Assembly (NCBI GenBank): GCA_036479435.1
Contig: JAZGFI010000090.1
Location: 14,846-78,845 of the forward strand
Direction: 5' to 3'
DNA length: 64,000 nucleotides
Source of the DNA: Planctomycetota bacterium
Lineage (GTDB): Bacteria; Planctomycetota; GCA-002687715; DRQF01
Each line of letters starts with the position of its first letter. The stretch's first letter is position 1. A program made the position numbers and the translations under genes. The notes under the pieces were generated by a model. The model saw only the letters and a program-made list of their open reading frames with translations. It did not search any database and had not been told where the DNA came from. Shown here in pieces: positions 3,758-64,000 of this stretch.

Positions 3758-4207
3758 CTAGAGCCAGCGGCGGACCGATGCGCGGTAGTTGAAATAGGTC
3801 TCGCCGAAGTTTTTGAGGAGCACTTTTTCTTCGACCTGCACGAATCGCGTGCGGATGATGAGGAAAAAGATCGGCGGCACGACGAGCGGGCTGAGGCTTC
3901 CGAGGCCGATAGCGGCACCCGCAAGAATCGCCATCATCGCCAAGTACATCGGATTTCGGCTGAGTCGAAAAACCCCGCTGGTGACGAGGTGACTTGGAAT
4001 CCGAAAGGGGATGACCGTGGTGTGGTGACGCCGAAAAGTGAGCGCAGCCCAGAGGATGGTGGCAAGTCCCATTCCGATCGGAATCCAGCCCAGTTGATTC
4101 CAGGGAGCTCGGACGATGACGAGGATCGGCGCTAAGAAATTGAGAGCCACCATCGTGAGGAGGCTCGCCGCCAAGTACACCGGCGGGAGGATGCGACGTT
4201 TCTTCAT
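3758..4207 (-). CDS. Isoprenylcysteine carboxyl methyltransferase (ICMT)/phospholipid methyltransferase family membrane protein
   Basis: Multi-TM 149-aa protein with 'SGVFRLSRNPMYLAMM' and a C-terminal 'E..LL..FG..Y..Y', as in the ICMT/PEMT family. Confidence 0.7.
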   Translation of the reverse strand: MKKRRILPPVYLAASLLTMVALNFLAPILVIVRAPWNQLGWIPIGMGLATILWAALTFRRHHTTVIPFRIPSHLVTSGVFRLSRNPMYLAMMAILAGAAIGLGSLSPLVVPPIFFLIIRTRFVQVEEKVLLKNFGETYFNYRASVRRWL

Positions 4208-47352: not shown

Positions 47353-47426
47353 GGGCGATTAGCTCAGCTGGTTAGAGCGCTTCGTTCACACCGAAGAGGT
47401 CACAGGTTCGAATCCTGTATCGCCCA
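47353..47426 (+). tRNA. tRNA-Val (anticodon CAC)
   Basis: Manual fold: acceptor GGGCGAT/ATCGCCC, D-arm GCTC-AGCTGGTTA-GAGC, anticodon stem CTTCG/CGAAG with loop TTCACAC, T-arm ACAGG-TTCGAAT-CCTGT, and discriminator A. Sits immediately upstream of an integrase. Confidence 0.85.
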
Positions 47427-47560
47427 CTTTCTTAACTTTCGCCGACGCCTGAACTTCAGGCAACCCGCCCCAAAGGCGGCGCGGCCGCAACCTCAAGAGT
47501 TCTCGGTTACCAGTATCCGTTTCAGGATTTGGTAGCCGTCGAAAGAGGAGACGGCGCGCT

Positions 47561-56877: not shown

Positions 56878-57252
56878 GAGAATTGGGCGTCAGGAGCGAT
56901 GCCTCAATCACTGATTAGCGCTGACAATTGGTGGCGGCAATGTGCCTGACTGGGCTTGTCCGAAGATGTCCAGGGAATTCAGCTCCTGCTCTTCGTTGTC
57001 GGAGAAATGTAGCGATCGATCGGCATGCCGGTTGGCAACACAAGCGCAGTGTGTTCTTGACTGTGCAGCTAAATGACTAGCAAGTCATGAGATCGTTGTG
57101 ATCAGATTTGTCGACGAATGGGCTGTCACAAATGCGCGCTCCGCAGCGAATGAGATCGACAGGGTAGATGATAAAGACCAAGGGATTCCCATCCGACCAA
57201 TTCCCTTGCAAGCGATGATTAGGCGAGACGTCCAGTCGGCATTGCCCAAAAC

Positions 57253-58179
57253 CTACAGCTGTTTCGTTCCGTGGATCGTTGACGGCGCATCGACGAATTT
57301 TAGCCCATTCCCCTGGACAAAAATCTTCCATCGATGCTCATATTGGGCGATCGAAAGGATGTTGAAGTCGTCAGTTTGCCCGGGTTGTCCATCTTCAATC
57401 CCGTCGCCGCATTTCACTCCGCCAAGATCGGTGAGCACGTACCGGTTATGAAATCGTTCACCGCCTGGGTCATCGAGCCAGCGACTAAATTTAACCGTGC
57501 AGCCAATAGGGAGTTTCTTGGCGAATTCGGACGCTTGTTGTTCAAAGAAAGCAAAGGTGCCTGTACGTTCACCGTGCACGTGGAGCATAAGACTCACTTC
57601 GCGACATCCAACCCGCGTGGCGACGACCGATAACTCCTCCAACAAGATGCGGCAGCGTGCCTTTTCAAACGCGAAATGTGGATCAACTATGTGTATTTCT
57701 TTGGCTTCAACTAGAAAGGAACTCAGAGCTTTGACTATTTTCGAAGCGGAGCGCTCAACAACGTCTCCGTTTTCCAAATCCCAAAGTGGATTAGCGAGAA
57801 CACCCAAGTCCTTGGCAAGTAGAAGTTTTGAGAAATTCTCGGCCGACCGCATGGCAATGACCCCTCGGTATGATGCTCGGTCATACTCTGATCGAGCGTT
57901 CTCAAGCCACGAGATTTCCGGGTCATATGTCTGGGCCACCCTTCTGGCACGTGGTCGACCAAGCATCTTGCAGAGTTCGGTTAATCGAGTCTTATCAAAT
58001 TGTGACAAGTCCATTTCCAACGCGAGAGCATGCACAGATCTCACCCACTTGGAGTATTTCGGGATTTCTATAATCACTCGAGGCGTCCCGATTCCAAATT
58101 TGTCGACGATGTATCGAAAGTTGGATGGTTTTGCCCAATCAATGCAAACTTCAGGTTCGACAGCGAAGCAGTGGATCAC
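57253..58179 (-). CDS. Hypothetical protein, partner of the upstream ABC-type ATPase (1-nt stop/start overlap TAGTG); candidate effector of a two-gene defense module
   Basis: GTG start sharing G58179 with the ATPase TAG stop. No HNH or clear TOPRIM seen by eye; 'CFAVEPEV' and 'VLTDLGG' are weakly TOPRIM-like at best. Confidence 0.45.
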   Translation of the reverse strand: MIHCFAVEPEVCIDWAKPSNFRYIVDKFGIGTPRVIIEIPKYSKWVRSVHALALEMDLSQFDKTRLTELCKMLGRPRARRVAQTYDPEISWLENARSEYDRASYRGVIAMRSAENFSKLLLAKDLGVLANPLWDLENGDVVERSASKIVKALSSFLVEAKEIHIVDPHFAFEKARCRILLEELSVVATRVGCREVSLMLHVHGERTGTFAFFEQQASEFAKKLPIGCTVKFSRWLDDPGGERFHNRYVLTDLGGVKCGDGIEDGQPGQTDDFNILSIAQYEHRWKIFVQGNGLKFVDAPSTIHGTKQL

Positions 58180-59648
58180 TATATGAGTTCCCGCATTCGT
58201 TCATCGAAAAACCCGTCGGGCCAGTTGTCAAGGAATTCACCATCTTCAGAGATTCTCAACTCCTTGATGCAAACGTCCCCGTCAATCTGATCGACATAGA
58301 GAACCGCAACATCTTCAGTGGTAACCGGATCCGTTTCAAACGGCAGTTCACCTTCCGATGTCTCTCGAATTCGACGTAACAACCTCAGGATCAAATGTTC
58401 ACTGTGGGTTTCAATGAGAAACTGCCTTTCAGAACATTGGCTGAGAAACAGATCACCCAATGCGACTTGCATCCTAGGATGAATGTGCAACTCAGGCTGT
58501 TCGATCGCGACGATTGTCACAATTTCTCGCGTGCCCAAGGGTGTATCCATAGTCGGTGACAGTGCGGCAACAACAACCGGGACTACTTGACCAATTCCCT
58601 CGCCAAGATCAGCAGGAGACAGGTCCAGAAGTTTCGTCTCATCAAAAACCACAAGCCGACCGATTTCCGGAAGATGATCAGTGAGCGCATCAAAATTCTC
58701 GTCGAGTTCACCATTCATGGCAGCCGCGCGGAGCCGGTCGAACATCGCACCATCGAACTCACGCAGGGTTTTCCAGACAATTTGATATCCGGTGTCCAGT
58801 CTTGACTCGTGACTCAGCCACTTGTTTGCATCTTTTCGAATAGTTTCGTCAATTGAAAGCAGGTCCCATGCGCCGAGCCCGCACGCCCATCTGCTTTCAT
58901 CCAAACGCCTTGGTGATCGATAATTGCGATCAGGTACTTTGCGAATTGGTCCAACATATCTGAAGGTTGAGAGCTCGTCTCTCAACAGATCACATGCGCC
59001 GGTCAACAAATCCCCAGCAGACCGATAATAGTTTTCAACGTCTTCCGAATCCTCGGACTCCTCGAACTGCACGCTGCATCCGACCTCTGGAAGCGCCATC
59101 CGATTCCCAATTGAGCAAGCCACTTTGTCGGTGAGCACGATTGGCAAGTCACCTTCACCTTCGTACCCCAAGATTGGATTCGCGAGATTCAGATTCGTCA
59201 ACCAGACATTGGAACCACCTGAGCTGCAACCGAACTCTGCAAACGGGTCTCCGTTGAACCCAACGGCCAGCCTGTCAACAATTGGCCGTGCAAGGGGAAT
59301 GCTCCAACAAACCCGAATCTCAACACTAATTGTCTCGAAACTAAACTCGGCCGACTCCAATTCAACTCCCTCTGACGGCGCAAATTCAAACCCTACAGTG
59401 ATTGAATTAGTGAGGTCGTGATTGTTGACGTAGCTCTGATATCCGCCAAGGTCTAAGTCGCCACCGAGGCGTGTGCGCCCAACGTCCGGATCACCAAGTT
59501 CAAGCATCGCTTGCGCATAATGAACTGCATGCATTACGGTGCTCTTCCCAGCACTATTTGGACCGAACAACAGAGTGATTGGCTTAAGACTCAATTCCTG
59601 ACGGTCACTAATGCCCTTGAAGTTCTCTATGGAGATTCGACGAATCAT
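58179..59648 (-). CDS. ABC/SMC-type ATPase of the AAA_15/AAA_21 (OLD/PtuA/AriA/GajA-like) class
   Basis: N-terminus 'MIRRISIENFKGI...ITLLFGPNSAGKST' is a Walker A in the typical defense-ATPase context. C-terminus 'VAIEQPELHIHPRMQ' (Walker B/D-loop) and 'FLIETHSEHLI' (H-loop). Start MIRRIS lies 3 nt after the hsdS stop. Confidence 0.8.
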   Translation of the reverse strand: MIRRISIENFKGISDRQELSLKPITLLFGPNSAGKSTVMHAVHYAQAMLELGDPDVGRTRLGGDLDLGGYQSYVNNHDLTNSITVGFEFAPSEGVELESAEFSFETISVEIRVCWSIPLARPIVDRLAVGFNGDPFAEFGCSSGGSNVWLTNLNLANPILGYEGEGDLPIVLTDKVACSIGNRMALPEVGCSVQFEESEDSEDVENYYRSAGDLLTGACDLLRDELSTFRYVGPIRKVPDRNYRSPRRLDESRWACGLGAWDLLSIDETIRKDANKWLSHESRLDTGYQIVWKTLREFDGAMFDRLRAAAMNGELDENFDALTDHLPEIGRLVVFDETKLLDLSPADLGEGIGQVVPVVVAALSPTMDTPLGTREIVTIVAIEQPELHIHPRMQVALGDLFLSQCSERQFLIETHSEHLILRLLRRIRETSEGELPFETDPVTTEDVAVLYVDQIDGDVCIKELRISEDGEFLDNWPDGFFDERMRELI

Positions 59649-59650
59649 GT

Positions 59651-60835
59651 TCAGAGTTCTCCTTTGTATGCGCATTGAGAAAGCGAGTCAAATAACTCAG
59701 CAGCGCGTTTTCTGTGGAGCTCGAAGTTCCGTTTCGCAGAGCGCGCATTGTCATGCAAGGCTAAGAAATCTTCTTGTAAGGGCTTGGGAGGCGTGATTAT
59801 CTCTAATCCACCAAGGCCTCGAGTGTTGATATTGTAGTTCCCTGCAGTCGTCTTTGCTTCGCGAATCAAACGAGACCTAAAAGTTGGAAATGACACAACG
59901 CTCTGTATGAACTGGCTTGAGGTGGGTGAGCCTGGTGTGAGGCGCGCTCGTATCAAGTATGAGGCAAAAAGCGCCTCTCGCTTGTCATCGAAAACCGCAC
60001 ACCGACCGATGTGATCAGGATTGCCATTCGTTCTGACAAAGAGAAGATCGTCTTGCTGAAGAAGGACTCGATTCGCCTCAGCTTGTTCAAGCGTTGTGTA
60101 TTTTAGGTCAACCCAGTTGATTCCACCGTTCTTTATGTTGGGGATGCGAAGAACGGGGCGAGACCCTTCTATTTCGGTCAATGCGCATTTCTTTGAAGTG
60201 CCATAGCGCATCTCAGACGTTAAGCTGTCCAGGCGGCAAGAATCCCACCCCTTGGGATTTTTTACAGGATCACCGAACATATTGTGGAAGGCTGAGCGGA
60301 GGAAATCTTCGGTTAGGGCAATGGACTCTTGCCGTTTTCGTCTGATTGCGTCGGCTTTGTCGAGGATGTCGGCGATGCGCCTTTGTTCAGGGAGAGATGG
60401 GAGGGGGACCGAAAGCGTTGCGAGTCTCGAGAAAGAAATCGCCTTCCGTCGATGAACGGACCCATTCCCTAAGAGTTCATAAGTTGCAAGTGCTTCCGGC
60501 GATTTCAGAAATCGAACAAGGTACTCAGGCAAAACCTCATTAGTGTCAACTTCGAACCCAGTATACATCGGACTAATAATGCAGTCTTCTGGGCCAATAC
60601 CAATTGAGCCTTCGTCAAGGTGAATCGTTGCGTAAGCTATCTCGTTTTTGTGTATCTCTTTGTAGCCTTTGGTATCTCGACTGAATACCTGTTTTTTAAA
60701 GTACTCGAGGCTCGGAACGAAGCCACTATGTTTTGTGACCGCGTAGACGGGCAACTTAGATCCCGTCTTCGCACGCCGCTTGACTTCTCGCGAAACGCTT
60801 CCCAACAGGACTCTCGAAAAGGATCGATCCTTCAA
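59651..60835 (-). CDS. hsdS: Type I restriction-modification system specificity subunit
   Basis: Two target-recognition domains separated by conserved helical spacers ('[28 protein letters not shown]' and '[34 protein letters not shown]'). Confidence 0.85.
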
Positions 60836-62367
60836 GACAATAGTCCCTCTAATTCATCGAGGTCTGAAGTGATTTCTCTTTCCAACATCCTAATTTTCTC
60901 AATAATGATTCGCGGCTTTTCAGTCTTGGCTTCTTCGTAGACGACTTCCTTGTATCGATTCATGGAAAGGTCGTAATTCTCATCTCTAATTTCGTCAGCC
61001 GACACAAAGAAAGCCTGCGCCTTTCGATCATTTAGTTTCTTGGCGTCTCTTTTTCGCCATTGCTCAACAACATCGGGCAAATCATTTTCTTCAACCGGTC
61101 CAAGCGGTGTTTTTTCTTTGGATGCCTCCGCACGTTTGTCATCTAGAGAATAACCATCCCGCTTAACGTCATAGAAGAAAACGTTGTCTGTTTTTCCACC
61201 TTTTGTGAACACGAGGATGGCCGTTGACACACCGGCATAGGGCTTGAAAACGCCGGACGGCAAGGAGATAACCGCTTCAAGTTGGTTTTCGTCCACGAGC
61301 AGTTTGCGCAGCGATTTGTGGGCACCAGATGAATTGAAAAGAACGCCGTCGGGAACGATGGTAGCACTCCGACCGCCCAACTTAAGCATCTGTAAAATAA
61401 GCCCAACGAATAGTAACTCCGTCTTCTTAGTTTTGACTTTCCGAATCAGCGAAGGATGCACATCGGCATAGTCAAGGCTACCCTTGAACGGTGGATTCGC
61501 AAAGATGACGTCAAAAGCGTTCTCTGCAAACTGTGGAAACTTCTCAGGAAACGAATTACTCAGGGTATCTCGGTAGTGAATCCCTGGATTGTCGACTCCA
61601 TGAAGCATCATGTTCATAGCCGCAATGCGCAGCATCGTCACATCAAAGTCGAAACCATGAAACATGTCTTTTTGTATGTGCTCGCGATAGGGCTCGAGCT
61701 TGTCGCCTGTGAAAATGATGCTGCCGTCCTCAGCTTTGATTTGTCCGGCTTTGGATGTATGAGTTTCAAGAAGATATTGCATGGCCCCAACTAAGAAACC
61801 TGCGGTGCCACAGGCAGGGTCAGCAATTGTTTCGTCTGGTTTTGGTTCAAGTAGCTCAACCATTAGCCGAATGATGTGTCTTGGAGTTCTGAACTGCCCA
61901 TTGATGCCGGCTGTAGTCAACTTGCCAAGCAAATACTCGTAGAGGTCACCTTTGGTGTCGCCGGAGGTGAGAGGAAGTTCATCGACCATGTTGACTGCCT
62001 GAACCAAGAGGCTCGACTTCTGAATCATCAGCTGAGCATCAGCCATGTACTCACTGAAAGTGTCTCCTTCGCTGAGATTCCGTAGATGTTTGAATACGTT
62101 GTCACGAACCATCGGCATCATTTTCTCACCGCTGAGGTGCTTGAAGCTCGACCAACGAAACTCCTGCTCATCTTTAGCGAACACTGGCTGAAACTGCTTC
62201 TTTGATCTTGCGGCACGTATCTCGCTGGCAGACTCTTTGACGTCGAGCAAGCGGATGAACATCAGAAATGAGATCTGCTCAATGACAGTGAGGGGATTGG
62301 TAATCCCGCCTGTCCAAAAGGCTTCCCATAGTTTGTCAATCTTGCTTCTAAGTGGACCAGTAATCAT
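60832..62367 (-). CDS. hsdM: Type I restriction-modification system DNA methyltransferase subunit (N6-adenine)
   Basis: HsdM N-domain, motif I '[12 protein letters not shown]', and motif IV 'NPPF'. 4-nt overlaps with both hsdR and hsdS. Confidence 0.9.
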
Positions 62368-64000
62368 GCAGAGTGTCCTCGGACATCAGGAAAGTTGAAT
62401 CGGTCAATCAGTGTCAGCAGCTCGTCAATGAGTTTGCCTTCAAAGACGCCATCGACGCCGTTTGAGCTGATTGATGTAAATGGTGGATCATAAAGACGGT
62501 CGACTTCGAGACCGCCATTCGCGCAAATGTATGCTTGAAGAATTGAGATGAATTGCAGCTGCTGTGAAGTCAATTCTGTGTGCTTGTGAATGAACTCAGT
62601 AAAACCCACATCCACTGCCTCGGTGTCTAAGCCAATGATGCTTCGAAGCGCACGGTGCAAATCACCAGCCACGTCGATCTTGATGGGTAGGTTCTTGAGA
62701 TCGACCTGTGGGTCGACTCTTAGAATCTTCAATGCCAGATCGTCCAAGTCCTGTTCCGAGACGGCCTCGCCGGCTTTGATTCGAGCGAGGGTAGGGTCTG
62801 CCACGAAGTGTGATTCCAAAACTTCTTGGACGCGCTGTCTGTAGGCAATGAGCTCTTGGCCATCGACCTTCGGGGTGTGTGACTCGGCCACCATAAAGCT
62901 GTCTTTCACATCGATTGTGACAGGATCAATCCTTGGCGCAGCAATCACAATCTTATGTTTCATGATCGACCGCAGATCAGTTCTCAAGTGCTCAAGGTCC
63001 GCAAGAGATGCACTTTCCCAGAACTCATCGCTTCGAACTTGGAGAATGCTGTCGGTCTTTGCTTTCACCTGGTTCAGATTCTTGGGAAGAGCCTCGACTT
63101 CATCTTTCAGCTGGCCAGCCAAGTCTGCGTATTCGCCAGATTCTTGTAAGAGAGAGGTCTGCATGCTCGTCATCAGCAGGTCGTGTCGATAAGCGTCTTC
63201 GTTCCCTCTGATGTCACACCAACGCATGAGTGGTGACACAATGTCGACCAAGGCTGCGTGGGTAGCGGCAGCAAAGGACTTGAGAGTGGCTTCCGAGCCA
63301 AGCTCCTGGAGGTTCTTCCAATGATCTCGGACTCCGATTGCCTTGGAGTTCTTAAGGAAGTTGATGTCAGCTCGAATCAGCTTTATGGCACCCTGGAAGG
63401 CCACTTCGTTCATCTTCTCCAAAGCAACTCGCGCAAACTCGACTCGAGTCCTGAAGACGCGTTCCATGAGTGACTTCGTCGGCGCTGGACTCTGCTCTTC
63501 GAAATGCTCGTCAAAGTACTCAAAGTTGCCCCAATGATCGAAGATGAGGAATTCAGTCTTGTGCATGCCAGGACCAAAGAGGTTAGGACAAAGTCTGGTT
63601 CCACGTCCGATCATCTGCCAGAACTTGACATAGGACTTTATCGGCTTGGCGAAGACCAAGTTCACGATCTCGGGCACGTCGAGGCCGGTATCCATCATGT
63701 CGACTGAGATTGCGATGCGAAGCTCGTGGTCTGGGTTCTTGAAATCATCAATGAGCTGCTCTGCTCTGGGATCGTAGTTGTCGATCACGCGGCAGAAATT
63801 GCCACCATACATGGGATAGAGCTCTGAAAAGACTTCAGAGAGATGCTCTGCATGTTTGTGACCACGGGCAAACACAATGGTCTTCCCTGGTAGGCTTCCA
63901 GACTCATCGCTGATTCCATTTTCCATCAGATTTCGAAGGATGTGACGGCTGGTATCCTTATTGAAAATCTTGCGGTCAATATCGGTTGACTCGTGCTCTA
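62364..64000 (-). CDS. hsdR: Type I restriction enzyme endonuclease/helicase subunit, C-terminal portion; gene continues beyond window end
   Basis: Helicase C-terminal motifs '[14 protein letters not shown]', '[15 protein letters not shown]' and 'QMIGRGTRL'. The reading frame stays open upstream of M63926 through position 64000 (…[22 protein letters not shown]…). Confidence 0.85.

What the first reader, a model, noticed from the sequence alone, without database searches (positions are those of the whole stretch)
57253..59675. ABC-type ATPase + unknown partner embedded at the 3' end of the Type I R-M operon: candidate two-gene defense system
hsdR-hsdM-hsdS, an ATPase and a partner gene form one minus-strand operon with 1-4-nt overlaps. 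The ATPase has the N-terminal 'ISIENFKGI...LLFGPNSAGKST' and C-terminal 'IEQPELHIHP / ETHSEHL' signature of the AAA_15/AAA_21 (OLD-like) ATPases. This class is used by Septu (PtuA), PARIS (AriA), Gabija (GajA) and RloC-like systems. Known partners are HNH (PtuB) or TOPRIM/DUF4435 (AriB). The 308-aa partner here shows no obvious HNH or canonical TOPRIM DxD by eye, so it could be a divergent or new effector. The ATPase C-terminus ('DGDVCIKELRISEDGEFLDNWPDGFF') resembles the DUF3696-type tail as I recall it.
Basis: partly seen in the sequence, partly recalled or inferred. Interest (0 to 1): 0.7.

Follow-up and report, generated by a model that had tools for sequence, protein, structure and literature searches.

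The report
Menshen-like ATPase–PLD pair on restriction operon
The two genes are a conserved, probably anti-phage ATPase-plus-nuclease pair related to the Menshen system; it has no Menshen sensor gene and instead sits at the end of a Type I restriction operon that appears to be switched on by a signal-sensing (CARF) sigma-54 activator.

Summary
hsdR, hsdM, hsdS, an ABC ATPase (58179-59648) and a 308-aa partner (57253-58179) form one minus-strand operon with junctions of 1-4 nt.

- **ATPase:** it carries AAA_15/AAA_21 and a DUF3696 tail. It scores far better with Menshen NsnB, PDC-M55A and HEC-03B than with AriA, PtuA or GajA.
- **Partner:** it has no sequence-family hit. A confident AlphaFold model shows an N-terminal PIN-like domain and a C-terminal phospholipase-D-like domain with invariant HxVDPxF and HNRYVLTDxGG motifs. 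This is the NsnC layout (inPIN plus PB-PLD1/MIT_C-like).
- **Conservation:** in 40 of 40 non-redundant related loci the partner directly follows the ATPase. About three quarters of informative loci sit behind a Type I R-M system. No NsnA (DUF262) gene was found.
- **Upstream control:** just beyond the window, and in most relatives, an RtcR-type CARF/sigma-54 activator precedes hsdR, with a conserved -24/-12 promoter at its stop codon.
- **Location:** the unit lies on a tRNA-Val integrative island of about 22 kb.

Best reading: an NsnA-less Menshen-like sensor/effector module co-expressed with restriction. It is a new variant of a known kind. Mechanism and defence function are inferred, not tested.

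The parts
57253..58179 (-). Partner gene, 308 aa, GTG start. NsnC-like effector with two domains.
57760..58179 (-). N-terminal PIN-like (Rossmann-like) domain, about residues 1-140. Predicted docking or recognition domain.
57256..57759 (-). C-terminal phospholipase-D-like (PB-PLD1/MIT_C-like) domain, about residues 141-308. Predicted nuclease.
57673..57693 (-). Motif H163-x-V-D166-P167-x-F169 (strand followed by an acidic residue).
   Evidence: H163, D166, P167 and F169 are invariant in 68 sequences. Matches the 'D/E after beta2' feature of PB-PLD1.
57415..57450 (-). Motif H244-N-R246-Y-V-L-T-D251-x-G253-G254-V255. An HKD-like HxR(x)4D motif.
   Evidence: Invariant H244, R246, G253, G254; near-invariant D251. 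The sister family has HDR at the same place.
58179..59648 (-). NsnB-type ABC ATPase, 489 aa from ATG 59648 (the ORF is open from 59675).
   Evidence: Pfam AAA_15, AAA_21 and DUF3696. PADLOC PDC-M55A 2.8e-44, NsnB 6.2e-41 (full length), HEC-03B 8.6e-30. Start site.
59538..59564 (-). Walker A, GPNSAGKST.
   Evidence: Sequence. Conserved in the family alignment.
58476..58514 (-). Deviant Walker B, IVAI-E383-Q384-PELHIHP (EQ in place of DE).
   Evidence: 'EQPE.H.HP' is conserved at 90% or more across 42 ATPases. NsnB has EN at this place (PMC12065111).
58182..58322 (-). DUF3696 C-terminal tail (GEF...WPDGFFDER..EL). Predicted effector-binding helix.
   Evidence: Pfam DUF3696 1.8e-8. Conserved. Role inferred from AF3 models in PMC12065111.
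59651..60835 (-). hsdS, 394 aa.
   Evidence: Methylase_S 9.1e-11.
60832..62367 (-). hsdM, 511 aa.
   Evidence: N6_Mtase 2.9e-63 and HsdM_N.
62364..64000 (-). hsdR, 3' part; the gene runs off the window (1127 aa in full). The CARF-sigma54 activator and the -24/-12 promoter lie a further 2-3.7 kb beyond the window end.
   Evidence: EcoEI_R_C and Helicase_C. Full gene, activator and promoter seen in the same genome.
47353..47427 (+). tRNA-Val, attachment site of the island that carries the operon.
   Evidence: ARAGORN. A 43-nt copy of its 3' end (41/43) lies about 5.5 kb past the window end.
47561..48781 (+). Tyrosine integrase of the island.
   Evidence: Phage_integrase on the same contig, coordinates mapped to the window. 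GC falls from 0.58 to 0.50 from here to the window end.

Best explanation
The two genes are an NsnA-less, Menshen-type ATPase/effector module.

**Components.**
- The ATPase is an NsnB-family ABC ATPase. Its Walker A is intact, its Walker B is EQ instead of DE, its signature motif is GxGxxQ, and it has a DUF3696 tail.
- The partner is an NsnC-type effector: a PIN-like N-domain plus a single HKD-like phospholipase-D-fold domain.

**Inferred mechanism, by analogy with the AF3 models of NsnB4-NsnC2 and with PARIS and Septu.**
1. The ATPase oligomer holds the effector through its DUF3696 tails bound to the PIN-like domain. This keeps the single-motif PLD domains apart and inactive.
2. A phage-derived trigger changes the nucleotide state or conformation of the ATPase.
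3. The effector is freed or activated. It probably dimerises to complete a Nuc/Zucchini-type active site and cuts nucleic acid.

**Expression.** The module is co-transcribed with, and translationally coupled to, a Type I R-M system. The whole operon is driven by a sigma-54 promoter that needs an RtcR-type CARF activator encoded just upstream. Restriction and the second-line effector would therefore be licensed together by a small-molecule or RNA-fragment signal.

**Shown:** gene order, domain identities, conservation of the pair, the R-M, the activator and the promoter.
**Inferred:** complex formation, trigger, substrate, sigma-54/CARF dependence in vivo, and the defence phenotype.
For: **ATPase identity.**
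- Pfam AAA_15, AAA_21 and DUF3696.
- PADLOC NsnB 6.2e-41 over the full length, PDC-M55A 2.8e-44, HEC-03B 8.6e-30.
- The family-wide EQPE Walker B and GxGxxQ signature mirror the deviant NsnB motifs (PMC12065111).

**Partner identity.**
- AF2 pLDDT 92.5.
- The invariant D166 and H244-x-R246 motifs match the 'D/E after beta2 + HDR before beta5' of NsnC PB-PLD1.
- The sister subfamily has HDR, reaches Pfam MIT_C at 1.1e-5 and matches the BrxL C-terminus.

**Linkage.**
- The ATPase is directly upstream in 40 of 40 non-redundant loci and in 3 of 3 sister-family loci.
- Type I R-M is upstream in about 27 of 35 informative loci.

**Regulation.**
- A sigma-54 activator lies directly upstream of hsdR in the window's own genome.
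- It is also present in 12 of 17 other informative R-M loci, in 3 of 3 sister loci, and directly upstream of the ATPase in 4 Hsd-less loci.
- TGGCACG-N4-TTGA/TTGC sits exactly at the activator stop codon in 12 or more loci. The window genome has GGCACGAAAAGTGC, 1 match against 0.16 expected.
- No sigma-70-like promoter is found inside 56500-60000.

**Precedents.**
- HEC-03 (ABC ATPase + PIN protein) defends E. coli and needs both genes (bioRxiv 10.1101/2024.01.29.577857).
- RtcR-like activators head Type I R-M-containing defence superoperons (PMC11090510).
Against: - The ATPase-effector contact is borrowed from models of distant homologues.
- The HKD lysine is arginine, and the closest structural relatives FAM83 and MIT_C are not known enzymes. 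The PLD-like domain could therefore be a binding module.
- The PIN-like domain keeps several invariant acidic residues (E8, E38, E98), so it may not be inactive.
- Walker B EQ suggests weak or no ATP hydrolysis.
- The -12 promoter element is TTGA rather than TTGC in most loci, and presence of rpoN in this genome was not checked.
- The activator is absent from at least 5 R-M-type loci and 4 Hsd-less loci. It also accompanies other cargo (L048), so it is not specific to the pair.
- The window's partner departs from several near-invariant N-domain residues.
Confidence: 0.6

Rival explanations
1. The pair is a dependent accessory of the Type I R-M enzyme, in the manner of PrrC-EcoprrI. It would be held silent by, or take its DNA signal from, the HsdRMS complex (the R-M taking the place of NsnA), and fire when restriction is blocked by an anti-restriction protein or when HsdR stalls on foreign DNA.
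For: - The pair is always at the 3' end of hsdRMS, with a 2-nt hsdS-ATPase junction.
- Type I R-M is present in about 77% of informative loci.
- No NsnA sensor occurs anywhere.
- About 28% of Menshen loci also adjoin R-M or BREX.
- From established knowledge: PrrC is an ABC-ATPase nuclease embedded in a Type I R-M and unleashed by T4 Stp.
Against: - At least 8 loci with 5 kb or more of upstream DNA carry the pair without any Hsd genes (L021, L027, L029, L034, L038, L041, L043, L015). The module can therefore exist on its own.
- Two different hsd gene orders and HsdR subfamilies are used, which argues against a specific protein-protein fit.
Confidence: 0.25
2. The catalytic part is the PIN-like domain, acting as an RNase as in HEC-03B or VapC. 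The PLD/MIT_C-like domain would be a non-catalytic binding or dimerisation module.
For: - E8 (E or D in 65 of 68), E38 and E98 are invariant or nearly so, and lie at strand ends where PIN active sites sit.
- The HEC-03 partner is a VapC-like PIN protein.
- MIT_C and FAM83 PLD-like domains have no known catalysis (PMC12065111).
Against: - The window's own protein has lost several near-invariant N-domain residues (E96R, NPR112-114SAE) while every PLD motif residue is intact.
- The N-domain is swapped between subfamilies while the PLD domain is kept. This is the pattern Li et al. describe for docking inPIN domains.
Confidence: 0.15
3. It is a member of PARIS, Septu, Gabija or an RloA/RloB-AbiL type system, the families first suggested.
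For: The N-terminal P-loop region and the Walker B/H-loop region hit AriA (1.3e-19), PtuA (7.5e-12), GajA (1.6e-11) and AbiLi (1.3e-13) models. PDB PtuA, GajA and OLD chains match at 1e-4 to 5e-6.
Against: - These matches cover only 40-120 residues of generic ABC motifs.
- The NsnB, PDC-M55A and HEC-03B models score 10-25 orders of magnitude better.
- The partner has no DUF4435/TOPRIM, HNH or RloB match. Its fold is PIN plus PLD.
Confidence: 0.02
4. The pair is not an immune module. It would be an addiction or stabilisation (toxin-antitoxin-like) cassette, or a DNA-processing function, of the tRNA-Val integrative island.
For: - The operon lies on a low-GC island of about 22 kb with an integrase, an AlpA-like gene and RadC.
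- HEC-03 expression was toxic in E. coli.
Against: - In other genomes the same module occurs in varied non-island contexts, always with R-M, CARF, CRISPR or STAND neighbours.
- Its closest homologues are validated or candidate defence proteins.
Confidence: 0.05

Closest known systems
Menshen (NsnA-NsnB-NsnC; Millman et al. 2022; Li et al. 2025, PMC12065111)
   Same: - The ATPase matches the NsnB model over its full length (6.2e-41). It shares the DUF3696 tail, a non-DE Walker B and a GxG signature.
- The partner has the NsnC layout: a PIN-like N-domain plus a C-terminal effector of the PB-PLD1/MIT_C-like type, with D...H[D/N]R motifs.
- Gene order is ATPase then effector.
- It often adjoins R-M systems.
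   Different: - There is no NsnA (ParB-DUF262) gene in the window or in any of about 45 related loci.
- The motif is HNR rather than HDR in this subfamily.
- The module is fused to the 3' end of hsdRMS and sits under a CARF-sigma54 activator.
- This family was outside the NsnA-anchored census.
HEC-03 (Payne et al., bioRxiv 10.1101/2024.01.29.577857)
   Same: A two-gene ABC ATPase plus PIN-domain protein embedded in another defence system. Both genes are needed for defence. The ATPase model matches at 8.6e-30.
   Different: The HEC-03 partner is a VapC-like PIN protein without a PLD domain, and it is embedded in Hma systems. The partner here matches no PADLOC model.
PDC-M55 (PADLOC v2 untested candidate from BREX/DISARM/Type I R-M-embedded genes)
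   Same: Best-scoring model for the ATPase (PDC-M55A, 2.8e-44). Same 'guilt by embedding' context.
   Different: No PADLOC model, PDC-M55B included, matches the partner at E<=1, so the cassette as defined is not met. PDC-M55 is itself untested.
PARIS (AriA/AriB) and Septu (PtuA/PtuB)
   Same: An OLD-like ABC ATPase holds a separately encoded nuclease. Activation by release or conformational change is the likely working analogy.
   Different: Their effectors are TOPRIM/DUF4435 or HNH and their ATPases lack DUF3696. Similarity is limited to generic ABC motifs.
PrrC-EcoprrI and RloA/RloB cassettes in Type I R-M loci
   Same: ABC-ATPase-based modules genetically embedded in Type I R-M operons. PrrC acts as a back-up when restriction is inhibited.
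   Different: PrrC is a single fused ATPase-anticodon nuclease located between the hsd genes. RloB is TOPRIM-like. Here there are two genes at the operon's 3' end with a PLD-type effector.
RtcR-headed defence superoperons (CoCoNuT Type II/III-A; Bell et al. 2024, PMC11090510)
   Same: A CARF-AAA+-HTH sigma-54 activator sits at the 5' end, Type I R-M genes are in the middle, and a second effector system is at the 3' end, all co-oriented.
   Different: The terminal cargo there is a McrBC-type CoCoNuT with HEPN RNases. Here it is an NsnB/NsnC-like pair.

Membership tests
Menshen | Adjacent NsnA gene (ParB-DUF262 + ParBDB). | tested here: not met
   hsdS lies directly upstream. No DUF262 hit in window neighbours or in upstream genes of related loci.
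Menshen | NsnB: AAA_15-type ABC ATPase with a C-terminal DUF3696 helix. | tested here: met
   Pfam AAA_15, AAA_21 and DUF3696. PADLOC NsnB 6.2e-41, residues 10-494 against model 1-336/345.
Menshen | NsnB deviant motifs (Walker B not DE; signature GxG). | tested here: met
   EQPE and G.G..Q are conserved at 90% or more in 42 ATPases. NsnB has EN and GxG.
Menshen | NsnC: N-terminal PIN-like domain plus C-terminal effector domain, encoded directly after NsnB. | tested here: met
Menshen | PB-PLD1 effector signature: D/E after beta2 and an HDR motif before beta5, MIT_C-like. | tested here: inconclusive
Menshen | NsnB tetramer binds the NsnC N-domain through DUF3696 tails. | not testable with these tools
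   Only monomer AF2 was available. The claim rests on AF3 models in PMC12065111.
PARIS | AriB partner with a DUF4435/TOPRIM nuclease. | tested here: not met
   No Pfam or PADLOC hit for the partner. The fold is PIN plus PLD.
Septu | PtuB HNH nuclease partner. | tested here: not met
   No HNH match. PtuA models match only about 45 residues of the P-loop.
Gabija | ATPase fused to TOPRIM (GajA) plus a GajB helicase. | tested here: not met
   The ATPase ends in DUF3696, not TOPRIM. No helicase partner.
HEC-03 | Both cassette proteins match the HEC-03 models. | tested here: not met
   The ATPase matches the HEC-03B model at 8.6e-30. The partner matches no PADLOC model at E<=1.
PDC-M55 | Both cassette proteins match PDC-M55A and PDC-M55B. 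| tested here: not met
   A is matched at 2.8e-44. The partner has no PADLOC match.
Phospholipase D (HKD) superfamily | PLD fold. | tested here: met
Phospholipase D (HKD) superfamily | Catalytic HxK(x)4D(x)6GSxN motif. | tested here: inconclusive
   HxR(x)4D-x-GG is invariant, with K replaced by R and no GSxN. Activity unknown.
PIN nucleases | Four conserved acidic active-site residues (D-E-D-D). | tested here: inconclusive
   E8, E38 and E98 are conserved, but no clear quartet is seen and 3D clustering could not be inspected.
RtcR-type CARF sigma-54 activators | CARF N-domain + sigma-54 AAA+ domain + Fis-type HTH. | tested here: met
Sigma-54 promoters | GG-N10-GC (-24/-12) element upstream of the operon. 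| tested here: met
   GGCACGAAAAGTGC at the activator stop codon in the window genome. TGGCACG-N4-TTGA/TTGC at the same place in 12 or more loci. In vivo use not tested.
Type I restriction-modification | HsdR, HsdM and HsdS genes. | tested here: met
   Pfam hits. Full 1127-aa HsdR in the same genome.

The most novel reading that the evidence does not exclude
The six genes (CARF-sigma54 activator, hsdR, hsdM, hsdS, NsnB-like ATPase, PIN-PLD effector) form one integrated, inducible two-tier immune system. [quoted passage not shown] The Type I R-M complex itself would replace NsnA as the DNA sensor that informs the NsnB-like ATPase. A stalled or inhibited restriction enzyme would then release a dimerisation-activated PLD nuclease. 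This would show how Menshen-type ATPases receive their signal, and would be a case of second-messenger-controlled transcription of an R-M system.
Probability: 0.2. Interest if true: 0.75.

Novelty: new variant of a known kind. Interest (0 to 1): 0.55.

Why it matters
- **Mechanism of Menshen.** Menshen is validated as a defence system but its mechanism is unknown. How NsnB is triggered is an open question stated by its analysts.
- **A natural experiment.** This family, with about 2400 sequence clusters in Myxococcota, Planctomycetota, Acidobacteriota and others, lacks the NsnA sensor. The ATPase/effector pair is instead hard-wired to a Type I R-M operon.
- **Second example of a design.** It extends the 'CARF-RtcR-like activator leads an R-M-containing defence superoperon' design beyond CoCoNuTs. 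This supports signal-induced rather than constitutive expression of restriction systems.
- **Testable effector.** It supplies a compact PLD/MIT_C-like effector with an HxR(x)4D motif. That motif can test whether this branch of the PLD fold, which also occurs in BrxL and human MITD1, is catalytic.
- **Caveat.** None of this is shown experimentally here.

Tried and rejected
- **Sequence searches for the partner.** Pfam, PADLOC, NCBIfam, PHROGs, and PDB phmmer and profile searches gave nothing significant.
- **Foldseek against AFDB.** The library was unavailable.
- **Menshen paper supplements.** Wanted for a direct PB-PLD1 comparison, but not held.
- **Exact sigma-54 consensus TGGCAC-N5-TTGCW across loci.** Only three matches. 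Relaxed, position-anchored inspection was needed.
- **A divergent gene of about 562 aa upstream of the activator.** Seen in L046-L048 and considered as a seventh component. Rejected because the window genome has a DUF2130 gene there instead.
- **Apparent hsdR frameshift (971 + 252 aa) in the MAG annotation.** Traced to a 268-bp tandem duplication present only in the long-read assembly. The window copy is intact.
- **Intrinsic terminator or stable structure after the partner.** None convincing.
- **Literature searches.** Searches for this exact association (DUF3696; RtcR + HsdR + CARF; sigma-54 + R-M; RtcR_PspF2) found only the Menshen, PADLOC-embedding and CoCoNuT papers.

Full report
**1. Observation.**

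The minus strand of 57253-64000 carries five co-oriented ORFs:
- hsdR, cut by the window end
- hsdM, 60832-62367
- hsdS, 59651-60835
- an ATPase
- a 308-aa gene, 57253-58179

The junctions are:
- ATGA between hsdR and hsdM
- TTGA between hsdM and hsdS
- the hsdS TGA, two bases, then ATG 59648, preceded by GGAG
- TAGTG between the ATPase and the partner

The ATPase ORF is open from 59675. Family models align from residue 10 of that ORF, so 59648 is the likely start (489 aa). Pfam confirms HsdM, HsdS and the HsdR C-terminus. The window is 100% identical to another assembly of the same organism in which hsdR is an intact 1127-aa gene. No sigma-70-like promoter is found in 56500-60000, against 2.8 expected. 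No clear terminator follows the partner.

**2. The ATPase.**

Pfam gives AAA_15 2.8e-18, AAA_21 3.2e-17 and DUF3696 1.8e-8.

PADLOC ranks the models as follows:
- PDC-M55A, 2.8e-44
- NsnB of Menshen, 6.2e-41, one stretch covering the whole protein
- HEC-03B, 8.6e-30
- AriA, 1.3e-19; PtuA, 7.5e-12; GajA, 1.6e-11; Old, 4.7e-12. These match only the P-loop or the Walker B/H-loop stretch.

PDB sequence matches to OLD, PtuA and GajA are likewise marginal, 5e-6 to 8e-4.

An alignment of 42 ATPases from related loci shows these features:
- Walker A, GPNSAGKS
- an invariant 'EQPE.H.HP', that is EQ where ABC ATPases have the Walker B Asp and the catalytic Glu
- a 'G.G..Q' signature
- ETHSEHL
- the tail GeF...WP.GFF.ER..EL

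Li et al. (PMC12065111) describe the same kinds of deviation for NsnB: EN for DE, and GxG for SGG.

**3. The partner.**

It has no hit in Pfam, PADLOC, NCBIfam, PHROGs or PDB sequences, alone or as a profile. It nevertheless belongs to a real family:
- 179 proteins were found by word-indexed search, about 40-44% identical over the full length.
- Exhaustive HMM search found 2386, 1656 and 752 50%-identity clusters at E<=1e-3, 1e-10 and 1e-30.

NCBI annotates the identical protein as only 199 aa. The family alignment supports 308 aa.

Invariant residues cluster in two motifs: H163-x-x-D166-P167-x-F169, and H244-N-R246-Y-V-L-T-D251-x-G253-G254.

- First, phospholipase-D-superfamily structures: FAM83A 10.8, NucT 10.2, PLD 10.1, SauUSI 9.9, MITD1 9.8, Nuc 9.4, Zucchini 9.1, NgoAVII 7.9, BfiI 7.5.

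The protein is therefore an N-terminal PIN-like domain (about 1-140) followed by a PLD-like domain (about 141-308). The second motif reads as an HKD motif with Arg for Lys, HxR(x)4D.

**4. Match to NsnC.**

Li et al. define NsnC as an N-terminal inactive-PIN domain plus a variable C-terminal effector. One effector class is 'PB-PLD1'. It is MIT_C-like and is characterised by an acidic residue after beta2 and an HDR motif before beta5. It is also found at BrxL C-termini.

Several results here fit that description:
- D166 follows strand 161-166, and H244-N-R246 precedes strand 246-250.
- A sister subfamily was found in the same operon position in a Sorangium plasmid (L046). It aligns to the C-domain only (hhalign 95.7%) and carries 'IFIDPFIDP' and 'IHDRYLITDL', a true HDR motif.
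- Members of that subfamily reach Pfam MIT_C: P0456 1.1e-5 (above the gathering score) and P0405 0.0044. They also match the BrxL C-terminus at 0.0022.
- The N-domain differs between the two subfamilies. This is the polymorphism pattern described for NsnC.

I could not compare directly with an authentic PB-PLD1 sequence, because no supplements are held.

**5. Conservation of context.**

- Three look-ups of distant homologues (a JGI metagenome, Sorangium, Thermoanaerobaculia) all showed hsdR-hsdM-(insert)-hsdS-ATPase-partner.
- A genome-collection scan gave 39 more loci.
- tblastn over all loci shows an ATPase homologue ending within -1 to +28 nt (114 nt in one locus) of the partner start in 40 of 40 non-redundant loci with upstream DNA.
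- Hsd genes lie directly upstream in about 27 of 35 loci with enough flank. Five of these have the order hsdM-hsdS-hsdR-(PD-(D/E)xK REase-ARP)-ATPase-partner.
- Eight loci with 5 kb or more of upstream DNA lack Hsd genes. One lies next to type III CRISPR RAMP/Cmr3 genes (L041). One has two tandem pairs (L038).
- No DUF262/NsnA gene was found in any neighbour scanned.
- Three sister-subfamily loci have the same architecture.

**6. An upstream activator and promoter.**

In the window's own genome the gene just upstream of hsdR, on the same strand and 2-3.7 kb beyond the window end, is a 501-aa sigma-54 activator. It has Sigma54_activat at 2e-69 and HTH_8 at 2.6e-10.

Homologues 55-70% identical occupy the same position in these loci:
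- 12 of 17 other informative R-M-type loci
- 3 of 3 sister loci
- four Hsd-less loci (L021, L027, L034, L038), where they sit directly upstream of the ATPase

A -24/-12 element lies exactly at the activator's stop codon:
- TGA|TGGCACGGTCATTGA in L001, L006, L012-14, L016, L017 and L023
- TGGCACGGAGATTGC in L025
- TGGCATGTCGTTTGC in L024
- TGGCATGGTAATTGA in L021
- TAA|cGGCACGAAAAGTGC in the window genome. This is a single match in 20.6 kb against 0.16 expected.

The surrounding intergenic sequence is not conserved.

The same activator plus R-M 'chassis' carries different 3' cargo in L048. Bell et al. (PMC11090510) described RtcR-like CARF activators heading superoperons, with Type I R-M between the activator and CoCoNuT systems. 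The arrangement therefore has a precedent with other cargo.

**7. Location.**

- tRNA-Val lies at 47353-47427 and is followed by an integrase at 47561-48781.
- An AlpA-like gene and RadC follow.
- GC falls from about 0.58 to about 0.50 from 48 kb to the window end.
- A 43-nt copy (41/43) of the tRNA 3' end lies about 5.5 kb past the window end, beyond the activator and a DUF2130 gene.

The whole unit therefore rides on an integrative island of about 22 kb.

**8. Mechanism.**

Shown:
- domain identities
- obligate pairing
- operon coupling
- R-M, CARF-activator and promoter association

Inferred from published work:
- Li et al.'s AF3 models have an NsnB tetramer whose paired DUF3696 tails clamp the NsnC N-domain.
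- From established knowledge of PARIS and Septu, as summarised in that paper, the ATPase probably sequesters the effector until a trigger alters its state.
- A single HKD-like motif per chain implies that two PLD domains must pair to form an active site, as in Nuc, Zucchini and BfiI. Release-and-dimerise is thus an attractive activation step.
- EQ in Walker B suggests an ATP-binding switch rather than a motor.

Unknown:
- The substrate, DNA or RNA.
- The CARF ligand. It could be a cyclic oligoadenylate or, as for RtcR, 2',3'-cyclic-phosphate tRNA fragments (PMC7790460 and PMC9650030, titles).

**9. Rivals.**

- *PrrC-like dependence on the R-M complex, with R-M replacing NsnA.* This is plausible and not exclusive of the main reading. 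Hsd-less loci show the pair can stand alone.
- *The PIN-like domain is the catalytic part.* It keeps invariant acidic residues (E8, E38, E98). However, the window protein has lost several near-invariant N-domain residues while all PLD motif residues are intact.
- *Membership of PARIS, Septu or Gabija.* Rejected on partner fold and model scores.
- *A pure island-maintenance role.* Unlikely given the contexts in other genomes.

**10. Verdict.**

It is best filed as working like Menshen NsnB/NsnC. It is not a member of Menshen as defined, because NsnA is absent. It is also not a PADLOC-defined HEC-03 or PDC-M55 cassette, because the partner is not matched.

It is a new variant of a known kind: an NsnA-less NsnBC-like module with a PLD/MIT_C-like effector. 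It is appended to a Type I R-M operon under an RtcR-type CARF sigma-54 activator and carried on a mobile island. Defence function and mechanism remain to be tested.

Noticed in passing
window 47353-48781 and 48000-64000 (right end about 5.5 kb beyond the window; L049 about 3884-3926): An integrative island of about 22 kb. tRNA-Val is followed by a tyrosine integrase, GC falls from 0.58 to 0.50, and a 43-nt (41/43) direct repeat of the tRNA 3' end lies past the activator gene. The two mismatches are compensatory in the T-stem.
   Followed up: partly
window 62934-63202 (hsdR); L045/L049: The long-read assembly of the same genome carries a 268-bp tandem duplication of this segment. It splits hsdR into 971-aa and 252-aa ORFs. 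The window and two other assemblies lack it, so it is either an assembly artefact or a population variant that inactivates restriction.
   Followed up: partly
window 57253-58179: The public annotation calls this gene as 199 aa (start at M110). Sixty-eight homologues align from the GTG at 58179, so the deposited protein lacks the whole PIN-like domain.
   Followed up: yes
window 57253-58179, residues 46, 96 and 112-114: The window's partner departs from near-invariant N-domain residues of its family (K46V, E96R, N-P-R112-114 to S-A-E) while all PLD-motif residues are intact. The docking or recognition domain may be diverging or relaxed.
   Followed up: no
window 54891-56633 (-): A 580-aa ORF directly downstream of the operon has no hit in Pfam or PADLOC. 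It lies among island genes: an HTH_31 protein at 53520-54455, RadC at 50640-51101 and an AlpA-like HTH_17 at 49868-50113.
   Followed up: no
L038 3761-6514 and 8229-11130; L020 9474-13009: L038 has two tandem ATPase-partner pairs after one CARF activator. L020 has a second ATPase and a 346-aa no-family gene right after the partner. This suggests cassette duplication and diversification.
   Followed up: no
L041 967-9933: An Hsd-less copy of the pair sits directly after type III CRISPR-Cas RAMP/Cmr3-like genes, a cyclic-oligoadenylate-producing context.
   Followed up: no
L048 10001-21506: The same CARF-sigma54 activator and Type I R-M carry different 3' cargo: a 1322-aa N6_Mtase/AAA protein and an AAA_16 protein. 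The activator-R-M unit therefore behaves as a chassis with exchangeable terminal modules. The activator family is far larger than the partner family (8000+ candidates, with the top 120 all about 65% identical).
   Followed up: partly
L021 3199-5132: A classical RloA/RloB-like pair (AAA_21 ATPase + RloB) lies just upstream of the CARF activator that precedes the ATPase-partner pair.
   Followed up: no
L003 5534-6430; L046 17703-18599: Sorangium loci carry an extra 298-aa gene with no family match between hsdS and the ATPase.
   Followed up: no
L001, L006, L012-14, L016, L017, L023: first 15 nt after the activator stop codon: The conserved sigma-54-type promoter has TTGA rather than the canonical TTGC at -12 in most loci. 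Only L024, L025 and the window genome keep GC.
   Followed up: no
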